Of a stretch of DNA of 64,000 nt, positions 2,160 through 60,200 are shown one piece after another. A model generated the notes under the pieces. The model had not been told where the DNA came from, searched no databases, and was given only the letters and a program-made list of their open reading frames with translations. Position numbers and translations under genes: made by a program. Each line of letters begins with the position of its first letter. Position 1 is the stretch's first letter. This DNA is from Octopus vulgaris (lineage: Eukaryota): positions 52,514,001 through 52,578,000 of the forward strand of contig OX597830.1 in NCBI GenBank assembly GCA_951406725.2. Reading direction: 5' to 3'.

Positions 2160-3355
2160 GAAGAAAGAACAGGAGAGACTTCTAGTGAAGTCAATAACAC
2201 AATAAATCATAGAAATAGACAAACAGGTCTATGCGACTGTGCTAGAGATATAGCATGCCCACTGAACTCAAAATGTAAAACTAAGAACCTAGTCTGTAGA
2301 TGCAAAGTTACCTCAGAGAAAAGGGACTAGTTTTATATAGGGGCCAGCTCTCTTTTTTCATAAAGAGACTGGCCAATTATTTAAATTCCTTTAGAGGTAG
2401 GGAAAAAATAAGTAATACAAGACTAAGTAAACTAATTTGGTCAAATAAAGACTAAAACAATAGCTAAGCTATTTATTGACAACTAATTAATACTGCTAAG
2501 CCTCATCAAATAGGGGGGAATAGATGTAACCTATGCGTAGAGGAACTTTATCCAATATTTATATCAAGATGCACATTAATACAAAATGCGAACAAGCCCT
2601 AAGATGTTTACACAAACATGTTGGGACCTTTAAGAGATATAGAGATAATTCTAGAAAGCCAACAGCCCAGCAAGAATTGAGCTTGAGATAACAAGTAGAA
2701 TAATGTAGCCTAAACATAAAAATATATAATAATCAGCATTAATAAAAAAATAAATAAATACCCTGCCCAATATATAACACAAATCATGAGCAGCCCAACC
2801 AAAAAATGAATATAAACAAATGTGAACTTTTCAATGCAAGCACTGCACTCAAAATCAAAGACATTACACGCACAACCATTAAAATGAACAAAGAGTCTTA
2901 CAAAAGCAATAATCTCAACCCTAACCTAACGTCAGCAACTTGGGTGAAGTTGAGGTCAACAGCACTGGAAATAACAACACCCCTACCTCCCCCAGAAGAA
3001 CAAAAATTTACTTCAATCAGTTCACTTCAAGGATAACCAAATGGACAGACCCTAATGAAGCTGTACCAACAATATTGCAAGGTTGCGTTTGCAATAGTGG
3101 GTAGTCACTGCAGCAGAAACATGTGTAGGTCATTATGTTATGTTGCATATAAAATAAGTTGTGTGGATGTACAAATCTCCTTACCCTTTATTATCATTAA
3201 TATTAATGTGTGTGTGTGTATGCGTGTGACAAAGGCTAGCAGGTTGAAACTTCAAAGTCACTGTCACTCCCTCTTCTTGTATGAGTTTAATAAACATATA
3301 CTCTACTGAATAGTAACGAGCAAGTCTTCAATTTAATGTTAAATTGCTTTTATAT
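2160..3355 (+). mobile_element. Penelope-like element 3' relic: GIY-YIG endonuclease pseudogene plus pLTR
   Basis: Translation with stops and frameshifts: CDCARDIACPLNSKCKTKNLVCRCKV..FYIG..KRLANYLNSFR..NTRLSKLIW..KPHQIGGNRCNLCVEEL..KCLHK. This matches the Cys-rich/YIG/SKxIW/CxLC/CxH pattern of PLE endonucleases. An A/C-rich 3' region and an HHR follow. Confidence 0.75.
3048..3131 (+). ncRNA. Type I hammerhead ribozyme, core mutated (CUAAUGA)
   Basis: Stem I GACC/GGTC; core CTAATGA; stem II GCTG/CAGC with inner TATTGCAA/TTGCAATA hairpin; GAAA; stem III ACA-TG-TGT; cleavage triplet GUA. Confidence 0.7.
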
Positions 3356-3726: not shown

Positions 3727-4145
3727 GTATTTGAAAACGCACTCTCTCACACATTCTTTTAGTCTCTTACTGGCTTCAGTCACTGGACTGTGTCCATACA
3801 AGTTTAAGGGTGCTTTTTCAATCAATCATATTAACTCTAGTATTTATTTCAGTCAGCAGTTTATTTCATTGATTTATATTTTATATTGGTTTACATTTCA
3901 TTGATCTCTATTTTAACAAGTTACTAAGTTGTGCTTTTTGACATGATGTTGGTTTTTACACCGTAAAGATAAACAGACATTGATATATAGGCATATATAT
4001 GTAAATATATATATATATTTTATTTATATATAGCAGAAGCAAGAGAGAGACTCATAGGCTGAGATTTTTGTGCTTTAATACTTGATAAGTGCTAATGCAT
4101 GCAACTCACAGCACATAAGTTACTCTGTTGCTTCTGCTGGATATT

Positions 4146-4242
<97 letters not shown>

Positions 4243-4991: not shown

Positions 4992-5305
4992 TATAATATT
5001 AGGGAGTATAACTCCAAACTTACAGGAAAAAAATTCAATTTAGTATTAAATCAAATTTCACAGTATAAATATATAAAATATAAATTAGAGATAAAACCAC
5101 TATCATGCAACTCAAACAGTGATAGACATAAACCAAAACAAAAATAACAAATAATATATATTTTTTGATCATTCATTTTTATACTTTTTGAGATCTAGTT
5201 ATAAGTTATATGTTTTATAAAAATATATATTATTTGTTATTTATGTTTTGATTTATGTCTATCACTGTTTGAGTTGCATAATAGTAGTTTTATCTCTAAT
5301 TTATA
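4992..5305. mobile_element. Hairpin + tail element with ~80-bp inverted arms
   Basis: 5079-5160 is the reverse complement of 5224-5305 with a few mismatches. One-sided extension at 4992-5078; (TA)n flank. Confidence 0.7.
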
Positions 5306-5880
5306 AATTATATATATATATATATCCTTCGAAACGTAGAATAGATGAAACCTTAGCAACTGAAGAAGGGGTTTTTTTGTTGTGTTAATTGTCCTGTACT
5401 CCATTTTTTGTTGTTTTTAAAAAAAATGTCCTGTTCCTTTGGTTTGTGTCTATGTTTTCGTTTCTCTTTGTGTTCGACGTCCCTTTGGTGTCCTGTACTC
5501 ATATATGCGTGTATATGTACATGTAGAGGTAGGTACGTACATATATGTTTATATATATGCATATGTTTTATTTCATTTATTAATGTATATATATATATAT
5601 ATACACGCACACACACACACATACACACCCACATCATGGAGTTGCGATGATGGTTTTACCTTCTGAGTCCTACATTACCCCTTTGCCAGCTAGTCTTCAT
5701 GCAAAAGCTGCTCTGAAGTGGACATCTGGGGGAGGGGACTTTCAAAGAAAGCCTCAAAAACATAAGGATCTGTTAAGCAGGAGTGACCACCCTAGCAGAT
5801 TTCATTGCTGTTTTCAGTGTCTCACAACTTAGGAAGATTTAAGTCACACTTACTCTCTCTCTCTCTCCCCACCTCTCTCT

Positions 5881-12525: not shown

Positions 12526-13793
12526 TAAGAGATGTTTTCAAAAAAGTATCCAACTTCATATTTTCCCACCAAAATTAATGCTGCATGGGCAAAATCATTT
12601 GAGCGAGAGGTGATGCTATCCTTCCTGCACATGTATGAAAGTTGTAGCACTAGTAGGCAGTATCCTTTTCCAGCTGCTATAGCTAGGGTAGACATGTAGT
12701 GCACACTCATGGGATTTTCATTTTCATACAAGGTGACTGAATGCATCAAGCAAAAACCAATAAACCCATGTCTCATCATCAGGGATAATGGTCTTCATGA
12801 AGTCTGGGTCATGGTTTGCACAGTCCAGTATGTCCTGAGGAATTTCCATGTGGAGTTGATTCTGCTGTTGCTGTTGAGCAAACGGTCTTTGTCCCAGAGC
12901 TCGCAAGATGGGAGAAGTCCGAAACATGGTCCTTTGCTATTTGTAAGACCCGCAGAAGAGAAACCAGGTCAACCCCCGACACCAAAAGCATCGACGGATG
13001 GATGAATGTGCATCCAGGCTCAGTGGTTGCATAGGAAGTCGGGTACAAAAAACAGGAAGAAAGAGTGAGAGAAAGTTGGGGCGAAAGAGTACAACAGTGG
13101 TTGCCACCACCCCCTGCCGGAGCCTCGTGGAGCTTTAGGTGTTTTCGCTCAATAAACACACACAACACCCGGTCTGGGAATCGAAACAGCGATCCTCCGA
13201 CTGCAAGTCCACTGCCCTAACCATTGGGCCATTGCGCCTCCACTGATTCTGCTGCTCCAACAGCACATTGGGGAGGAATTTCACCCAACACTGTCCCCAT
13301 GCTCAAATTCTCTGTTGAAATGCACTGATCCTGTGCTTATTCCCACTATGTGAGCTATCTCCTGGATTGTTACATGATGGTCTTCCATGACTATTTGATG
13401 AACCTTCTCAATTGGTGCTTCGTTTTGTATTGTGGATGTCCTGCCTGGCTGCACTGAGGTGTGGCCAAGTTTGAGGTGGTTGTACCACACTTTGATCTGA
13501 GCCTGTTGAATCTTCTGCATAATTTGAACTTGCGTATCACCAAGCTTTTGGCAAAACTTGATGCGCTGTTTCTGCTCCGTGCATTCACTGAAAATGAAAA
13601 TCTAAGTAGCATGCACTACATGTCTGCACTCTAAACATAATAGCCAGAAACTGGCTTGACCTACCAATATGAAAATTTTCATGCATACACAAGAGGGGTG
13701 ACATCACCTCTCATTCAAAGGATTTTGATCATGCAGCATTAGTTTTGGTGGGAAAAGATAAAGTCAGATGATAGTTTTTGAATACACCTCATA
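12526..13793 (-). mobile_element. Mariner relic with ~220-bp long inverted termini
   Basis: TA-flanked. Transposase fragments QRIKFCQKLG..QIKVWYN..GRTST..VTIQEIAHIVGISTGSVH..DPDFMKTII.DDETWVY. Ends 12526-12750 and 13570-13793 are inverted copies of each other. Confidence 0.8.
12868..13243 (-). mobile_element. tRNA-derived SINE inserted in the mariner
   Basis: A box TGGCCCAATGG and B box GTTTCGATTCC. 11-bp TSD TGATTCTGCTG at 12857-12867 and 13244-13254. Confidence 0.85.
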
Positions 13794-13899
13794 TGTGTGT
13801 GTGTGGGTGTATATGTATGCAGATAATGGATTTTTGTACATTTACTACTTATGGTCAGATTCCCTATTTTGGTAGCCAGTATGTGGTAGCACTGAAGAG

Positions 13900-14534
13900 G
13901 ATAAAGGAGGAATAAAGTACGAGTTTACATTGGAAACACATAGTTAGAGTTACCTAAAAGAATTTCTATCCATTACTCAACATTTAGGGATAGAAATAAA
14001 CGTAATAGTACCAGTCTCAGTAAATTAATTTGGGATCTAAAAGACTACAATGAACAATTTAATTTAGAATGGTTGATTCTCTCAATGTCGATACCTTATG
14101 ACAAAGGCAAGGAATTCTGTCTTCTCTGTAATTCTGAACTATTTTTCATTATTTTTTTCTAAAAATCCCCTAGTGAACATGGTTATAGAGTGTGCATACC
14201 ATGTAAACATTGGCAAAAACACACCTTTAGTGCATAAAGTAATCTCTATCTTTATATATAATTTAAACATTAATTTCCCTACTCTTTCTATAAGCTACTT
14301 CCGACGTTATATCATTTAATGTTTTTTCAAACAATATTAATAGCGTTCAGTAAATCACTAAACATATCCATCATTTTTTGCTAAAATGTCTTATTGACGA
14401 GTTTCATTTTTTTCACTTCTCTGAAGAGAAGATTACATTGTTTTATACCATTTATTCTTTTGAATAATATCAGTGAAATTTTTGAAACATGTGTCGAAAG
14501 TAAAAGTATTTGATTTATACCGCGTTAAACTCCA

Positions 14535-14545
<11 letters not shown>
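13900..14545 (+). mobile_element. Penelope-like element 3' relic: GIY-YIG endonuclease pseudogene plus pLTR ending in (TA)n
   Basis: VYIGNT*LELPKRISIHYSTFRDRNKRNSTSLSKLIWDLKDYNEQFNLEWLILSMSIPYDKGKEFCLLCNSEL..PCKHW from 13923. Confidence 0.8.
14412..14503 (+). ncRNA. Type I hammerhead ribozyme with intact core
   Basis: CTGAAGA at 14421-14427; 13-bp stem II GAAGATTACATTG/CAGTGAAATTTTT with one mismatch; GAAA at 14484-14487; stem III ACA-TG-TGT; GUC cleavage after 14495; imperfect stem I ACTTCT/GAAAGT. Confidence 0.7.
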
Positions 14546-14606
<61 letters not shown>

Positions 14607-14849
14607 TCTGCTATATCACAGGGCTGACCAAAGCCTTGTGAGTAGATTTGGTTGATGGAAACTGAAAGAAGTTTCCGGGTAATATTTTCAACCAAGGCAT
14701 TTCAATTATATCTGATTCAAGTGCTTCAACTCTGTATGTAAACATATTTACTAGATTGCTGACATTCATTAATGGCTTTGCCATTGTATTAATGTACTAT
14801 TTTCTATCATTAATAAAACCATCAGCATTTTTTTATGACATGGGTATGC

Positions 14850-38444: not shown

Positions 38445-39895
38445 ATCCTCATCATCATTATCATCATCTAGCATCTACTTTCCATGCTGGCATGGGTTAG
38501 ACTGGCTGATTTGATGTGGTTTCAATGGCTGGATGCTTTTCTTAACATGTAGTGAGTGCCTTTTACATATCACTGGCATAGGTGCCTTTTACATGTCACC
38601 AGCATGGGTGCCTTTGATATGTTACTAGCACGGGTGGTTTTTATGTGTCACCAGCACTGGCCACGACTACAATTTCACTTGGCTTGATGTGTCTTCTTAA
38701 ACACATCAAATCGCCAGAGATCTTGATCACTTGTCATCACCTTTGTGAGACCCAAGAGTCAAAGATTGTGCTTCACCATCAAATCCCATGTCTTCTTGGG
38801 TTTACCTTTTCCACAGGTTCCCTCCACAGTTAGAGATCAGCTCTTCTTTATGCAGCTGTCCTCATCCATATACAACACATGACCATACCAACACAGTTGT
38901 CTCTATTGCACACCACCTCTGATATTTTTCTCAAGATGCTCACACTCTGTTGAACATACACCACCTGCTTTATTCTCTCTCTCTCTCTCTCTCTCTCTGT
39001 CAAAGGTTTTCTCCATGTCAACAAAAACGAAGTACAGAGGTTTATTTTTGGCTAAGCACTTTTCCTGCAACTGCCTTACCAGGAATATAGCATCATTGGT
39101 AAGATTCTCTCTGGCACAAAACCAAACTACATCTCATCTAGATTATCTCTCTCCCTAATTAGTTGGGCCATGACCCTCTCCATAACTTTCATCAATTGAT
39201 CCAACAATTTGATACCTCTCAAATTATTTCTGTCTAAGGTATCACCTTTACCTTTGTAGCAGTTACTATGGTGCTGCTACACTAGTCATTGGGTATGACT
39301 CAATTGTGGGCTATCTGATTAACTATATGGGTGACTAGACCATAACCCACACCACCAGATATTTTAAGTATCTTGGTAGTGATTTCTGATGAGCCAGGGG
39401 ATTTCCCCATCTTCATATCCTTCATGGCTTTAACTACCCTGCTACTGTCTATTCAGATTGCTGATCCCTCTGTCGGATCCACATTAGGCAGACTCTCCAT
39501 GAATCCTCTACACTTAACAACCTTTCATAGTGGCACTACCAAGTCTCTTTCTTTGCAGAGTTGCTAACTGCAAGTGAACCATCATCCATGTGAACGCACT
39601 TCAATCCAACATCACAGTTTTTCTTGACACACTGTCTTGCAAACCAAAATACTTCATCCTGCCAAACATTGACAAACTTCTTCCTTTCTGCTTCAACCCC
39701 GGCTAAGTATACTGGCCTCCTAGCTTCCCTTCAACCTACCAAATATAGTTCCTTGCTATCACCACTTTTCCAGTTCTTCCAGGCCTGTTTATTTGCTCTC
39801 AAGGCGTTGTCAACTACACTGTTCCACCACCATATCACCTTAGGCCTGGTTGGGACTTTGCACCAACCACAAATTTGGTCTGTGGCTCACAGTAA
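38445..39895 (-). mobile_element. RTE LINE relic (linker, RT and 3' end)
   Basis: Homologous to 58700-59620 (WWWN, RGIKLLDQLMKV, FVDMEK) and to the RTE 3' UTR. Confidence 0.85.
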
Positions 39896-48227: not shown

Positions 48228-48447
48228 CTCTTTTACATTCACATTATTGTCATATGTAAAGCGCTTATTTATTCACCTTGTTTTGAATTAATCATGCATC
48301 ATCTTGCAGATATGAGACTTTCATGATGTAACTGCTTATTTCTAGAAGGACATTGTAGGGTAGGTGTGAGAGGCTGCATCGGATTGGTTTAAATATAAAA
48401 CAGGAAGAATATTTAGGCTAGAAATGGCCAGTTCAAATGCTAAAGGG
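48228..48447. mobile_element. piggyBac-like MITE
   Basis: TTAA TSDs at 48224-48227 and 48448-48451; TIRs CTCTTTTACATT and AATGCTAAAGGG. Interrupts the RTE coding sequence. Confidence 0.7.
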
Positions 48448-48929
48448 TTAACAGTATTATGGTAGATAGAGGAATTTAAAATATGAAGAGAGGAAATATA
48501 CTTAGTCCATTAGGAATTACTGCTGAGATGCTTAAAATTTCTGGTGGAATTTGTTACAAGCTATTCACCTGCATAGCCAATCAGGTTGTGCAGGAAAGTA
48601 TCACACTAATAACTGGTTTAGTAGCATTATTGGGAACTGCTGCAAGTGCAAAGAAAATCCATCAGAAAAAGGAAGCTACCATGTAGCTAACTGATGGATC
48701 AGGTTATAAAAGTTAAAAAGAAAGTTATTGCAAAACTGATTTGGAATAGGATTAACCTGGGTGAGATGCAGTTCAGCATCATACCAGGAAAAGGTACCAC
48801 CAATGCCACTAGTGACACAGCTACAGGAAAGGTATTCAGCTAGAAGTAAGTCCCTATATTTAGCATTTATCGGCAAGAAGAAGGCCTTTGTAATGCGCAA
48901 GAGAGTAAGTGGTACTGGTATGGATATAT

Positions 48930-52494: not shown

Positions 52495-52509
52495 ATATAT
52501 ATATATATA

Positions 52510-52865
52510 GAACAAAACATGAAATTGGACATTTTTGGTATTTATTCACCATTACATGTTTCATTTCTGAATAGGAATTACAGAGTTTTACATGTTAGGT
52601 AAGCATATAAGGAATTTCGTAATAGAAATTCTTCAGATAGAGAAATTAAACAATAACAAATAATATATTATTTAATTTCTCTGTTTGAAGAATTTCTAAT
52701 AAGAAATTCCTTATATGTCTATCTAACATTTAATACTTCGTAATTCCTATTAACAAATGAAACACATGTAATGAAGAATAAATAATACCAAAATAATTTC
52801 CATTCTCCTGTTTTGTTATACAATAATTCTGCAAATAATATTTCCATAATTCTCAATTTTTATAT
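52510..52865. mobile_element. Hairpin + tail element with ~140-bp imperfect arms, in (TA)n
   Basis: 52510-52650 pairs with 52671-52820. One-sided tail runs to (TA)n. Confidence 0.7.
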
Positions 52866-53988: not shown

Positions 53989-54024
53989 GCATTGTAAATG
54001 GACATTAAATGATGATATATATAT

Positions 54025-54500
54025 ATCTGTAAGTGTAATATGTGACAATTATTCGGTAGCCAAGATAAAACTCTGAGTTTCGGATGCCAAGGTGGAAATT
54101 CACACCACCATCTCTTCAGTTATCTGGCCATCGGAAAAACGCTATGAAAAATGACCTTCCATATTGAATTCTTCTGCGTGGTAGAGTCCTCAACCGATAT
54201 CTGGTGATTATCCAAAAAAAAGCTGTATTAGCTCTTAGGGAAGAATAGCGGCGTTCGGGAGGTAATTTACCACACAGAAGAATTCAATATGGACCAGGTC
54301 ATTTTTCAAAGCGTTTTTCCTATGGCCAGATAATTGAAGAGATGGTGGTGTGGATTTCTACCTCGGCATCCAAAACTCAGAGTTTTATCTTGGCTACCAA
54401 ATAATTGTCACATATTACATTTACAGATAAATTCCTCTATTTACATAATATTGAGGTCTCTTTCTTTCTTTTGTTATCTTACCATTTTTACCAATATATA
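54025..54500. mobile_element. Hairpin + tail element with ~160-bp arms, each carrying an HHR
   Basis: 54025-54184 is the reverse complement of 54268-54428 with ~10 substitutions and a small indel. ~80-bp spacer, tail at 54429-54495, (TA)n on both sides. Confidence 0.85.
54058..54129 (-). ncRNA. Type I hammerhead ribozyme with intact core
   Basis: Minus strand: GCCAGATAA-CTGAAGA-GATGGTGG..CCAC..CATCC-GAAA-CT-CAG-AGTT|TTATCTTGGC. Stem I AGATAA/TTATCT; cleavage triplet GUU. Confidence 0.75.
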
Positions 54501-57229: not shown

Positions 57230-60200
57230 ATCATCATCATCATCATTGTTTAACGTCCGCTTTCCATGCTAGCATGGGTTGGACGGTTCAACTGGGGTCT
57301 GGGAAGCCCGAAGGATGCACCAAGCCAGTCAGATCTGGTGGTGTTTCTACAGCTGGATGCCCTTCCTAACGCCAACCACTCCCTGAGTGTAGTGGGTGCC
57401 TTTTTATGTGCCACCGACACAGGTGCCAGACGAGGCTGGCGAACGTCCACGCTCAGATGGTGCTTTTTACGTGCCACCGGCACGGAGGCCAGGCGAGGCT
57501 GGTACGGCCATGATCGGAGAGTGTTTGTTACGTGCCACCAGCACGAAGGCCAGTCGATACAGTGCTGGCTACGGCCACATTCGGATTGTTCTCTTATGTG
57601 CCACCGGCGCTGGTACCACAAACTACAAATTCCATTGATGTTGATTGATTTCGATTTTGATTCAATTTTTTGATTCTTTGATTTTCACTTGCCTCAACAG
57701 GTCTTCACAAGTAGAGTTATGTGTCCCAAGAAGGAAGGTATGCACAGGTGGACTGACTACATCCCATGTAGGGGCCACGGGTTATGGCCTCACTTGCCCT
57801 TTACACATCCATCGGAGCATACTGGTTTCATTTCTTGCAAGCTTATGCATATCTTCAGCAGTCACAGCCCATGTTTCACTGCCATGTAGCATGGCTGTTC
57901 ATACACATGCGTCATAAAGTCTGCCTTTTACTCTGAGCGAGAGGCCCTTTGTCACCAGCAGAGGTAAAAGCTCTCTGAACTTTGCCCAGGCTATTCTTAC
58001 TCTAGCAGTTACACTTTCAGCACACCCGCTCCCGCTACTGACTTGATCACCTAGGTAATGGAAACTATCAACTATTTCTAGGTTTTCTCCCTGGAATGTG
58101 GCGGAAGATGGTCTCTGCGCATTTTCAGTGTTTATTGCACCAGATCATCTGCCACATACAAAAACTATATTCCTAGTTAGCCTTCCTTTGACATTGCTGC
58201 ACCTCTTATGTGTCCATAGCTTACACTTGGTGCATCTTATAGAGTTCCTACCTACGCCTTTTCTACAGATCGAGCAGGGCCATCTACCTGAAGGCGTTTG
58301 AGATTTGTCTACCTTCCTATTTATTAGGACTTTGGTTTTAGCTAGGTTGACTCTAAGGCCCTTCGATTCTGATCCTTGCTTCCACGTCTGAAACTTCTCC
58401 TCCAGTTCTGATAGTGATTCAGCAATTAGAGCAAGGTCATCAGCATAGAGGAGCTCCCAGGGGCATCCTGTCTTGAATTCCTCCGTTATTGCCTGGAGGA
58501 CTATGATAAATAGGAGGGGGCTGAGGACTGAGCCTTGGTGGACCCCGACCTCTACCCGGAATTCTTCACTGTACTCATTGCCAACCCTCACCTTACTAGC
58601 AGCATCCCTGTACATGGCACACACAGCTCTTACTAACCATTCATCTATCCATAGTTTCCTCATTGACCACCAGATAAGAGAACGGAGGACCCTGTCAAAG
58701 GCTTTCTCCAAGACAACGAAAGCCAGGTACAGAGTTTTATTTTTGGCTAGGTATTTCTCCTGCAGCTGTCTCACCAGAAATATGGCATCAGTGGTGCTTT
58801 TCCCTGGCACGAAACCAAACTGCATCTCGTCCAGGTTGACTCTCTCCCTAATCAGTTGGGCTATGACCCTTTCCGTAACCTTCATTACCTGATCCAACAG
58901 CTTGATACCTCTGTAATTACTTGTATCTAGGGCGTCACCTTCACCTTTGTAGCAGTTGACTATTATGCTACTACACCAGTCATTGGGTATGACTCCTTTG
59001 TGTATCACCTGGTTAACTATACGGGTGACTAGGCTATAGCTGACACTGCCAGATATTTTGAGCATCTCAGCAGTAATTCCTGATGGGCCTGGGGCTTTCC
59101 CTGTCTTCATGCTTCTAATTGCCTTAACTACCATGGAACTGTCAACTCGGATAGCTGGTCCCTCTATTGGGTCGACATTCGGCAGACTCTCTTTATCCCA
59201 TTCATTCTCTTTGTTGAGCAACCTTTCATAGTGGCATCTCCAAACCTCTCTCTTTGCACCCTCATTTAGCGCAAGTGAACCATCATCCATGCGAACACAT
59301 TTCTCTCCTACCACATCACGATTCTCTCTCACACACTGTCTTGCAACACGAAACACCTCAAGTCTTTGGTCCTCACGGCGCAGAACATTGGCAAATTTTT
59401 TCTTATCTACTTCCCCTCTGGCTAAATATATCTGTCTCCTAGCTTCTCTTTTCACAGTCTGATACAATTCCCTATAACCGCCATTCCTCCAGTCCTTCCA
59501 AGCCTGTCTCTTGTCTCTAATAGCCCTGTCTACAACAATGTTCCACCACCACGTTACCCTGAGACGAGATGGGACTTTGCTCCATCCACAGATCTGGTCA
59601 GTGGCTCTCAGCAGATTGTCCCGTAGAAACCTCCAGTTGGCTTCCACATTATGTGATGCTATATCCCCTTCTATTTCGTCAAAAGCTTCGAGTAGGACTT
59701 CTCTAAATCTCCGTCCATTTACAGGATCTTTAAGTTTCCAGACCCTTCTCCTCTGAGCTGGTCTTCTTCTGGGCAGCCATTTGGCCCTGATCCTGAAGTC
59801 GCTAACTACTAATCTATGTTGAGGAGTACATTCCTCGCCTGGGAAGGTTTTAGCATTTCTAAGCAGCCCTCTTTCCCTCTTTCTGGCGAGGATGTAGTCA
59901 ATCTGGCTAGTGTGTCTGCCAGAACGGTAGGTGACTAGGTGAGAGGTGGGTTTCCTGAAGTTGGTATTGCAAATCATAAGGTCATTTGCATCGCAGAACT
60001 CCAGCAGCCTGGTTCCCTCCTCATTGCGAGAACCAAAACCGTAGCTCCCATGTATGCCATGGAAGCCCCCAACATGCCGTCCAACATGTCCATTGAAGTC
60101 ACCTGCCACGAAGAGAAGGTCACTGTCATTTGTCAACGAGGTAGTCTGTAATAGGATGTCATAGAATCGGTCTTTCTGTCCTTCTGGTAGCCCTGGCTGA

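What the first reader, a model, noticed from the sequence alone, without database searches (positions are those of the whole stretch)
13900..14545. GIY-YIG endonuclease relic directly linked to an intact hammerhead
Seen: a YIG..SKLIW..CLLC..CKH pseudogene not in the ORF track, followed ~200 bp later by an HHR with intact core, 13-bp stem II and GUC site, then (TA)n. This cis linkage ties the HHRs in this window to Penelope-like elements and suggests the type of autonomous partner for the hairpin elements.
Basis: partly seen in the sequence, partly recalled or inferred. Interest (0 to 1): 0.7.

Follow-up and report, generated by a model that had tools for sequence, protein, structure and literature searches.

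The report
Decayed Penelope-like retrotransposon with hammerhead
This is the broken tail end of a very abundant jumping gene of an already described kind (a Hydra-clade Penelope-like element): a dead DNA-cutting enzyme remnant followed by a partly decayed, likely inactive self-cutting RNA motif, an arrangement that is ordinary for these elements.

Summary
A broken GIY-YIG endonuclease frame (13908-14237) is followed 184 nt later by a type I hammerhead (core 14421-14495, GUC site) and (TA)n at 14545-14602. The relic matches RT+EN proteins (tblastn E 5e-13). Its full-length relatives carry the motifs that define the Hydra clade of Penelope-like elements (PMC8557442). That paper already reports hammerheads throughout the clade, (TA)n targeting and an Octopus family, Hydra-1_Obim. 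Contig depth shows a high-copy repeat whose copy here begins near 13901-13925. It is therefore a 5'-truncated copy, of a family distinct from Hydra-1_Obim (27 of 76 residues identical, by eye). 'Intact' is overstated. The core is perfect, but stems I and II carry mismatches, and the hammerhead fold is about 15 kcal/mol less stable than the predicted best fold. Two hairpin elements carry Hydra-type hammerheads but share no sequence with this relic. They fit the known inverted-truncated PLE structure better than a separate partner-dependent class. One side lead is an upstream strand that pairs with the catalytic core. Verdict: real, known kind, low interest.

The parts
13901..14544 (+). 5'-truncated copy of a high-copy Hydra-clade Penelope-like element (5' edge within about 13901-13925)
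   Evidence: Summed contig depth on 13826-13900 is 31 (X1), 48-85 (X2), 0-5.5 (X6). On 13926-14548 it is 6e3-3.4e5 (X1), 1.4e4-4.2e5 (X2), 1.9e3-6.7e4 (X6). One X1 contig spans the 5' junction (13826-13981) with 0 differences.
13908..14237 (+). Remnant of the C-terminal GIY-YIG endonuclease: YIG, conserved R (13959) and H (13971), WxLK, CxxC..E, CxH; broken by two in-frame stops; the conserved N (LVN, 14170-14178) lies in another frame; the GIY half, linker and RT are absent
   Evidence: Comparison by eye with the Hydra EN alignment in the PMC8557442 supplement. No RT hit at E <= 0.1 anywhere in the window with two full-length relatives.
14238..14544 (+). 3' untranslated (pLTR-type) region of the element
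   Evidence: High-copy depth continues to 14548. Same layout as Hydra-1_Obim: stop, 3' UTR, HHR, short tail, TA.
14410..14506 (+). Type I hammerhead: core CTGAAGA 14421-14427, long stem II 14428-14483, GAAA 14484-14487, near-palindromic stem III 14487-14494, GUC site with cleavage after 14495; stems partly decayed
   Evidence: sibling letters
14394..14406 (+). Strand complementary to the 3' half of the catalytic core (14483-14497); possible 'off' fold, untested
   Evidence: 6+5 pairs, duplex -10.0 kcal/mol, pair probabilities 0.86-1.0 in the window copy; 13 of 1000 shuffles as strong (post hoc)
14545..14602 (.). (TA)n tract at the 3' end, the reported insertion target of Hydra elements
   Evidence: target preference from PMC8557442

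Best explanation
The stretch 13901-14544 is a decayed 3' end of a high-copy Penelope-like retrotransposon of the Hydra clade, holding the broken end of its GIY-YIG endonuclease gene, its 3' UTR with a type I hammerhead and a (TA)n flank, and it was likely laid down by a 5'-truncated target-primed insertion. Shown: the EN remnant, the hammerhead core, the repeat boundaries, the absence of RT, and Hydra-diagnostic motifs in intact relatives. Inferred from the literature: an autonomous parent RNA was bound by its RT-EN protein, the EN nicked a (TA)n tract, and reverse transcription began near the RNA 3' end and stopped after about 630 nt. The copy then gathered stops, frameshifts and stem mismatches. 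In the parent the hammerhead would likely act as a dimer through its near-palindromic stem III, to process tandem precursor RNA. That role is proposed in print but unproven, and was dispensable in vitro for an anole PLE. This copy is predicted not to fold as a monomeric ribozyme and encodes nothing functional.
For: EN homology: (63 bits against 26.6 in shuffles). Both full-length relatives checked (P0153, 749 aa; P0156, 884 aa) carry RW-basic, DKT (no DKG), YRDD, CxCX5C, C-terminal YxG, CxxC..E and CxH, the Hydra features listed in PMC8557442. Among 147 homologues, 132 have CxxC..E and 115 have N..CxH. Ungapped match by eye to the Hydra-1_Obim EN: 27 of 76 identical. High copy and a sharp 5' edge. 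The first stop is private to this copy: 13942 differs in 99-100% of depth in all four runs. Siblings have C at 14420 (95-100% of depth in four runs) and C at 14483 (50-92%), turning two G.U pairs next to the core into G-C, including the usual G10.1-C11.1 pair. Stem III forms a self-duplex of -6.0 kcal/mol, as in the palindromic stem III of the 26 Hydra HHR rows of File S2. The cleavage site lies 49 nt before (TA)n. Four opposite-strand joints in single X2 contigs show sibling copies with inverted structure.
Against: No full-length member of this exact family was recovered. The closest intact proteins are only 31-39% identical, so clade placement rests on EN motifs and on relatives, not on this family's RT or on a tree. 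Pfam gives no significant GIY-YIG hit for the relic or P0001, and only E 0.017 for 1 of 10 relatives. The upstream flank is not (TA)n and no target-site duplication is visible. Even with the sibling letters shown, the hammerhead fold is not the MFE (-4.6 against -16.6), and 44 of 84 difference rows were not shown.
Confidence: 0.9

Rival explanations
1. The 630-bp unit is itself a fixed-length non-autonomous family, an internally deleted Hydra derivative mobilised in trans, rather than a randomly truncated copy of an autonomous element.
For: Very high depth along the whole unit with a steep rise at 13901-13950. No intact close relative found in three protein searches or in the representative library.
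Against: Laying contigs on one copy always gives an edge at that copy's own 5' end. Related decayed copies P0004, P0002 and P0006 extend further 5' into the GIY half. 5' truncation is the usual state of PLE copies (PMC8557442). The protein searches are insensitive, as the tool itself states.
Confidence: 0.07
2. The relic marks the autonomous partner family that mobilises the window's hairpin elements as a separate non-autonomous class.
For: Hairpins 54021-54432 and 52508-52820 each carry one Hydra-type hammerhead core pointing outward, with the cleavage site 45-48 nt from a TA-flanked end. Three Hydra-type EN relics lie in the window.
Against: No sequence similarity between any of the four hairpins and this relic's 3' region. 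Inverted 5'-truncated copies and paired opposite-strand hammerheads 100-700 bp apart are described as ordinary PLE insertion products (PMC4209133; PMC8557442; PMC3846280). Siblings of this family form such inversions at varied junctions.
Confidence: 0.1
3. The hammerhead and the EN relic are chance neighbours from two separate insertions, or the hammerhead is a chance pattern.
For: No Rfam gathering hit. No single contig spans both parts.
Against: Depth stays high with overlapping sibling contigs from EN through the HHR to the TA tract. Chance rate is 0.02 per window. The spacing matches published Hydra elements.
Confidence: 0.02

Closest known systems
Hydra clade of C-terminal EN+ Penelope-like elements, including Hydra-1_Obim of Octopus bimaculoides (Craig et al. 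2021, PMC8557442)
   Same: C-terminal GIY-YIG EN without CCHH, with CxxC and CxH around the conserved E and N; type I HHR in the 3' UTR with palindromic stem III, shortly before the 3' end; (TA)n target.
   Different: A different family: 27 of 76 EN residues identical to Hydra-1_Obim (by eye), and a different HHR and 3' UTR. Stem II has 12 of 13 pairs against 3-7 bp in the 26 Hydra rows of File S2. This copy is truncated and dead.
Minimal type I hammerheads of metazoan PLEs (Cervera and de la Pena 2014, PMC4209133)
   Same: Mostly solitary motifs in truncated PLE copies, longer-than-usual helix II, G10.1-C11.1 pair in siblings, palindromic stem III predicted to need dimerisation.
   Different: Helix II is longer still (13 against 7-8 bp). 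[quoted passage not shown] An upstream anti-core strand is present, which the parts I read (1 and 2 of 4) do not mention.
Non-LTR retrozymes of animals (bioRxiv 10.64898/2026.07.22.740005)
   Same: Type I HHR-bearing, PLE-related repeats
   Different: Those are non-coding tandem repeats. This is a dispersed single unit with an EN coding remnant.

Membership tests
Hydra-clade PLE | C-terminal GIY-YIG EN with conserved R, H, E, N | tested here: met
   YIG, R, H, E in frame; N in a shifted frame, with 1-nt indels near 14152 and 14199-14200 seen in 30-60% and about 30-80% of sibling depth. The ORF ends at 14237, followed by the UTR.
Hydra-clade PLE | CxxC and CxH on either side of E/N | tested here: met
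   CLLC 14118-14129 and CKH 14202-14210; 132 and 115 of 147 homologues
Hydra-clade PLE | CCHH motif absent | tested here: met
   No His pair after the R..H helix in the relic. No cysteine pair between the GIY and YIG halves in the intact relatives aligned. The GIY half itself is missing from this copy.
Hydra-clade PLE | CxCX5C linker upstream of EN | tested here: inconclusive
   Truncated away in this copy. Present in P0056, P0153, P0156, in 33 of 147 mostly fragmentary homologues, and in the second relic at about 2230-2260.
Hydra-clade PLE | RT with RWK and DKT motifs; RT phylogeny | not testable with these tools
   No RT in this copy and no host genome held. RWR and DKT are present in the distant relatives P0153 and P0156.
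Hydra-clade PLE | Canonical HHR near the 3' end | tested here: met
   compared with File S2
Hydra-clade PLE | Insertion into (TA)n | tested here: met
   (TA)n at 14545-14602 at the 3' end; not on the 5' side
Penelope/Poseidon, Neptune, Nematis PLE clades | CCHH motif in EN | tested here: not met
   definition from PMC8557442
Naiad PLE | N-terminal EN followed by RT, no canonical HHR | tested here: not met
   EN is followed by a stop, UTR, HHR and (TA)n; no RT downstream
Active hammerhead ribozyme (type I) | Invariant core CUGANGA / GAAA / UH | tested here: met
Active hammerhead ribozyme (type I) | Three helices forming the favoured fold | tested here: not met
   Forced fold -0.4 against MFE -15.6 kcal/mol; stem pair probabilities <= 0.15. 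The energy model ignores tertiary contacts and dimers.
Active hammerhead ribozyme (type I) | Self-cleavage | not testable with these tools
   Needs an assay
Non-LTR retrozyme | Non-coding tandem units, each with an HHR | tested here: not met
   Single unit, no second copy in the window, coding remnant present

The most novel reading that the evidence does not exclude
This Hydra family carries a built-in antisense lock: a strand just upstream of the hammerhead (14394-14406) pairs with the catalytic core and keeps the ribozyme off in monomeric RNA, releasing it only in tandem transcripts or on RT-EN binding. That would be a regulatory switch for PLE ribozymes, whose role is still open. For: duplex -10.0 kcal/mol, 13 of 1000 shuffles and 0 of 91 upstream element 30-mers as strong; the strand is present in sibling contigs, and one A-U pair reads G-C in most siblings. 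Against: the test was post hoc, both changes are CpG-decay type and so not independent covariation, and the other two window hammerheads show weaker duplexes (-7.0, -4.4).
Probability: 0.12. Interest if true: 0.45.

Novelty: new member of a known kind. Interest (0 to 1): 0.13.

Why it matters
It matters little. It adds one more, apparently very abundant, Hydra-clade family and confirms that hammerheads in this window come from Penelope-like elements, which is what PMC4209133 and PMC8557442 predict. It would help repeat annotation of the host. It would matter more only if the anti-core strand proved conserved and regulatory, or if the hairpins proved to move as units, since the function of PLE hammerheads is unresolved (in PMC11167929 cleavage was not needed for insertion in vitro).

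Tried and rejected
Host genome search: none held, so no family consensus or copy count could be made. Rfam at gathering threshold: 0 matches in the window. At E <= 10 on 14380-14530, snR75 (23.7 bits against a cut-off of 40) is judged chance on an unstructured model, and Hammerhead_1 scored only 13 bits. Pfam: nothing significant for the 72-codon stretch, P0001 or 10 relatives. PDB sequence search with A1: no GIY-YIG hit, best E 0.018 to an unrelated cytochrome. Search for long relatives of P0001: 0 of 20 candidates. Metagenome scan with a 20-nt motif: 2 loci matching only the seed, chance. No RNA holder listed; run X9 is only guessed to be RNA and its contigs are sibling copies, so nothing is claimed on expression. 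An opposite-strand second hammerhead using the anti-core strand was considered; its 5' core has two mismatches and no stem I (sequence inspection), so it was rejected. Hairpin-to-relic homology: none. Earlier scan findings: none in three look-ups. Published Hydra sequences were compared by eye only, not aligned by program, and no tree was built.

Full report
Observation. The + frame from 13896 holds YIG, a stop, SKLIW, CLLC, E, a second stop, CKH and a final TAA at 14235-14237. A type I hammerhead follows 184 nt after that stop: CTGAAGA at 14421, a 56-nt stem II region, GAAA at 14484, a near-palindromic stem III and a GUC site with cleavage after 14495. It is the only strict hit in the window. 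(TA)n runs 14545-14602. A relaxed Hydra-type descriptor, written after seeing this site, finds 3 hits in the window. In 200 block-wise dinucleotide shuffles it gives a mean of 0.02, and 0 of 200 shuffles have a hit with stem II >= 7 bp. The hammerhead fold is not favoured: -0.4 against -15.6 kcal/mol, z -0.79, and no Rfam gathering hit. The core is intact; the ribozyme as a whole is partly decayed.

Protein identity. The unbroken 72-codon stretch retrieved one decayed relative, P0001 (E 2e-12, 56%; 1 of 7 candidates). P0001 retrieved 231 proteins at E <= 0.001, of which 150 were listed. I dropped P0001 itself and two hits that match only by short repeated stretches, leaving 147. Of these, 132 have CxxC..E, 115 have N..CxH, 110 WxLK and 33 CxCX5C, many being fragments. 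Their profile scores 13908-14240 at 107.5 bits. The RT+EN protein P0056, named in NCBI as an Argonauta hians hypothetical protein, hits the relic at 63.2 bits and 39% identity, against a best score of 26.6 bits in 100 shuffled windows. Two full-length relatives (749 and 884 aa) carry RWR, DKT, YRDD, CxCX5C and the C-terminal EN. Pfam and PDB sequence searches were uninformative.

Known family. Craig et al. 2021 (PMC8557442) define the Hydra clade by these features: C-terminal EN, no CCHH, CxCX5C linker, CxxC and CxH around E/N, RWK and DKT, canonical hammerheads throughout, and (TA)n targets. I read section 11, search passages, supplement parts 2, 52 and 53 of 59, and supplement search passages. 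The supplement lists Hydra-1_Obim from Octopus bimaculoides with its hammerhead. Its EN aligns to the relic without gaps at 27 of 76 identical residues, counted by eye, so the relic is in the same clade but a different family. Cervera and de la Pena 2014 (PMC4209133; parts 1 and 2 of 4 read) describe thousands of solitary minimal hammerheads in truncated metazoan PLEs. They also report paired opposite-strand motifs 100-700 bp apart, and no detectable cleavage for the monomer they tested. PMC11167929 (passages) found hammerhead cleavage unnecessary for insertion in vitro. PMC3846280 (passages) describes inverted pLTRs. PMC13282606 (passages) reports Penelope-like expansions in Octopus vulgaris, with 0 occurrences of 'hammerhead' or 'Hydra' in its main text. 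The retrozyme preprint was read in part 1 of 5; its supplements are closed and could list related families. That the host is an octopod is my inference from recalled repeat motifs and from the Argonauta relative. It was not tested, and the verdict does not depend on it.

Family evidence. Contigs of four runs were laid on 13826-14548. Depth is at single-locus level to 13900 (31, 48-85 and 0-5.5 in the three large runs) and two to four orders of magnitude higher from 13926 to the TA tract. This is not a copy number, but it marks a high-copy repeat and this copy's 5' edge. One contig spans the junction with no differences. The first stop is private to this copy (13942 differs in 99-100% of depth). 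A 1-nt deletion near 14152 occurs in 30-60% of sibling depth and 1-nt insertions near 14199-14200 in about 30-80%, which explains why the conserved N sits in another frame here. In the hammerhead, siblings mostly have C at 14420 and 14483, making two core-flanking pairs G-C. None of the 40 rows shown (of 84) changes the core. Against a clean picture: position 14435-14476 remains mismatched with the letters shown, and the hammerhead fold is still not the MFE (-4.6 against -16.6). No contig spans the whole element. Four opposite-strand joints (single contigs, run X2; 15 of 21 joints shown) show sibling copies with inverted structure.

Mechanism. Shown: a dead 3' fragment of a high-copy Hydra-type element ending at (TA)n, with no RT in the window. 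Inferred from established PLE biology: EN nicking at (TA)n, target-primed reverse transcription from near the RNA 3' end, early termination, then neutral decay. Inferred for the parent: a dimer-dependent hammerhead (stem III self-duplex -6.0 kcal/mol) processing tandem precursor RNA. That role is proposed in print, not proven.

The hairpin elements. Four TA-flanked inverted-repeat elements were examined. Two carry one intact hammerhead core each, pointing outward, 45-48 nt from the end, like the relic's 49 nt. None aligns to the relic's 3' region better than shuffled sequence (16, 24, 135 and 186 of 200 shuffles score as high). They are best read as inverted, truncated insertions of other Hydra-like families. 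Two further EN relics in the window show that several families are present. Whether the hairpins move as units could not be tested without the genome.

Side lead. Bases 14394-14406 pair with the 3' half of the core (6+5 pairs, -10.0 kcal/mol; 13 of 1000 shuffles, 0 of 91 upstream element 30-mers) and dominate the fold of 14385-14512. The test was post hoc, and the one apparent covariation is explained by CpG decay on both sides. I did not search the literature specifically for such a strand.

Verdict. Real, correctly recognised as Penelope-like, and already explained by the published Hydra clade. It is a new family-level member at most. Five paper searches did not show a description of this particular family, but Repbase and Dfam could not be checked. 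Interest 0.13.

Noticed in passing
window 2193-2620 (+): Second Hydra-type EN relic, frameshifted, retaining a CxCX5C linker (profile iE 8e-10 and 7e-18). No hammerhead core found downstream to 2900.
   Followed up: partly
window 56713-56470 (-): Third, weaker Hydra-type EN relic (iE about 1e-4)
   Followed up: partly
window 54021-54432: Inverted-repeat element (84% arm identity) with a TA-flanked left end. The left arm has a well-folded Hydra-type hammerhead on the - strand (core 54119, GUU site at 54069; stems I and II in the MFE). The right-arm core is decayed.
   Followed up: partly
window 52508-52820: Inverted-repeat element (80%) with a long-stem-II hammerhead core on the - strand (52636-52553, GUA site) and a decayed mirror copy on +
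   Followed up: partly
window 3993-4160 and 5064-5320: Two more TA-flanked inverted-repeat elements (74% and 83%), with no hammerhead by the descriptor
   Followed up: partly
window 14603-14672: Fragment of a dispersed repeat directly after the (TA)n, with 74-96% matches at 8 or more other places in the window. It resembles octopus SINEs (recalled, not tested).
   Followed up: no
window 13589-13794: Repeat matching 12726-12525 in inverted orientation at 74%, upstream of the element and unrelated to it
   Followed up: no
window 38997-39892, 58692-59611, 48447-48828: Longer dispersed repeat (66-75% identity between copies), not characterised
   Followed up: no
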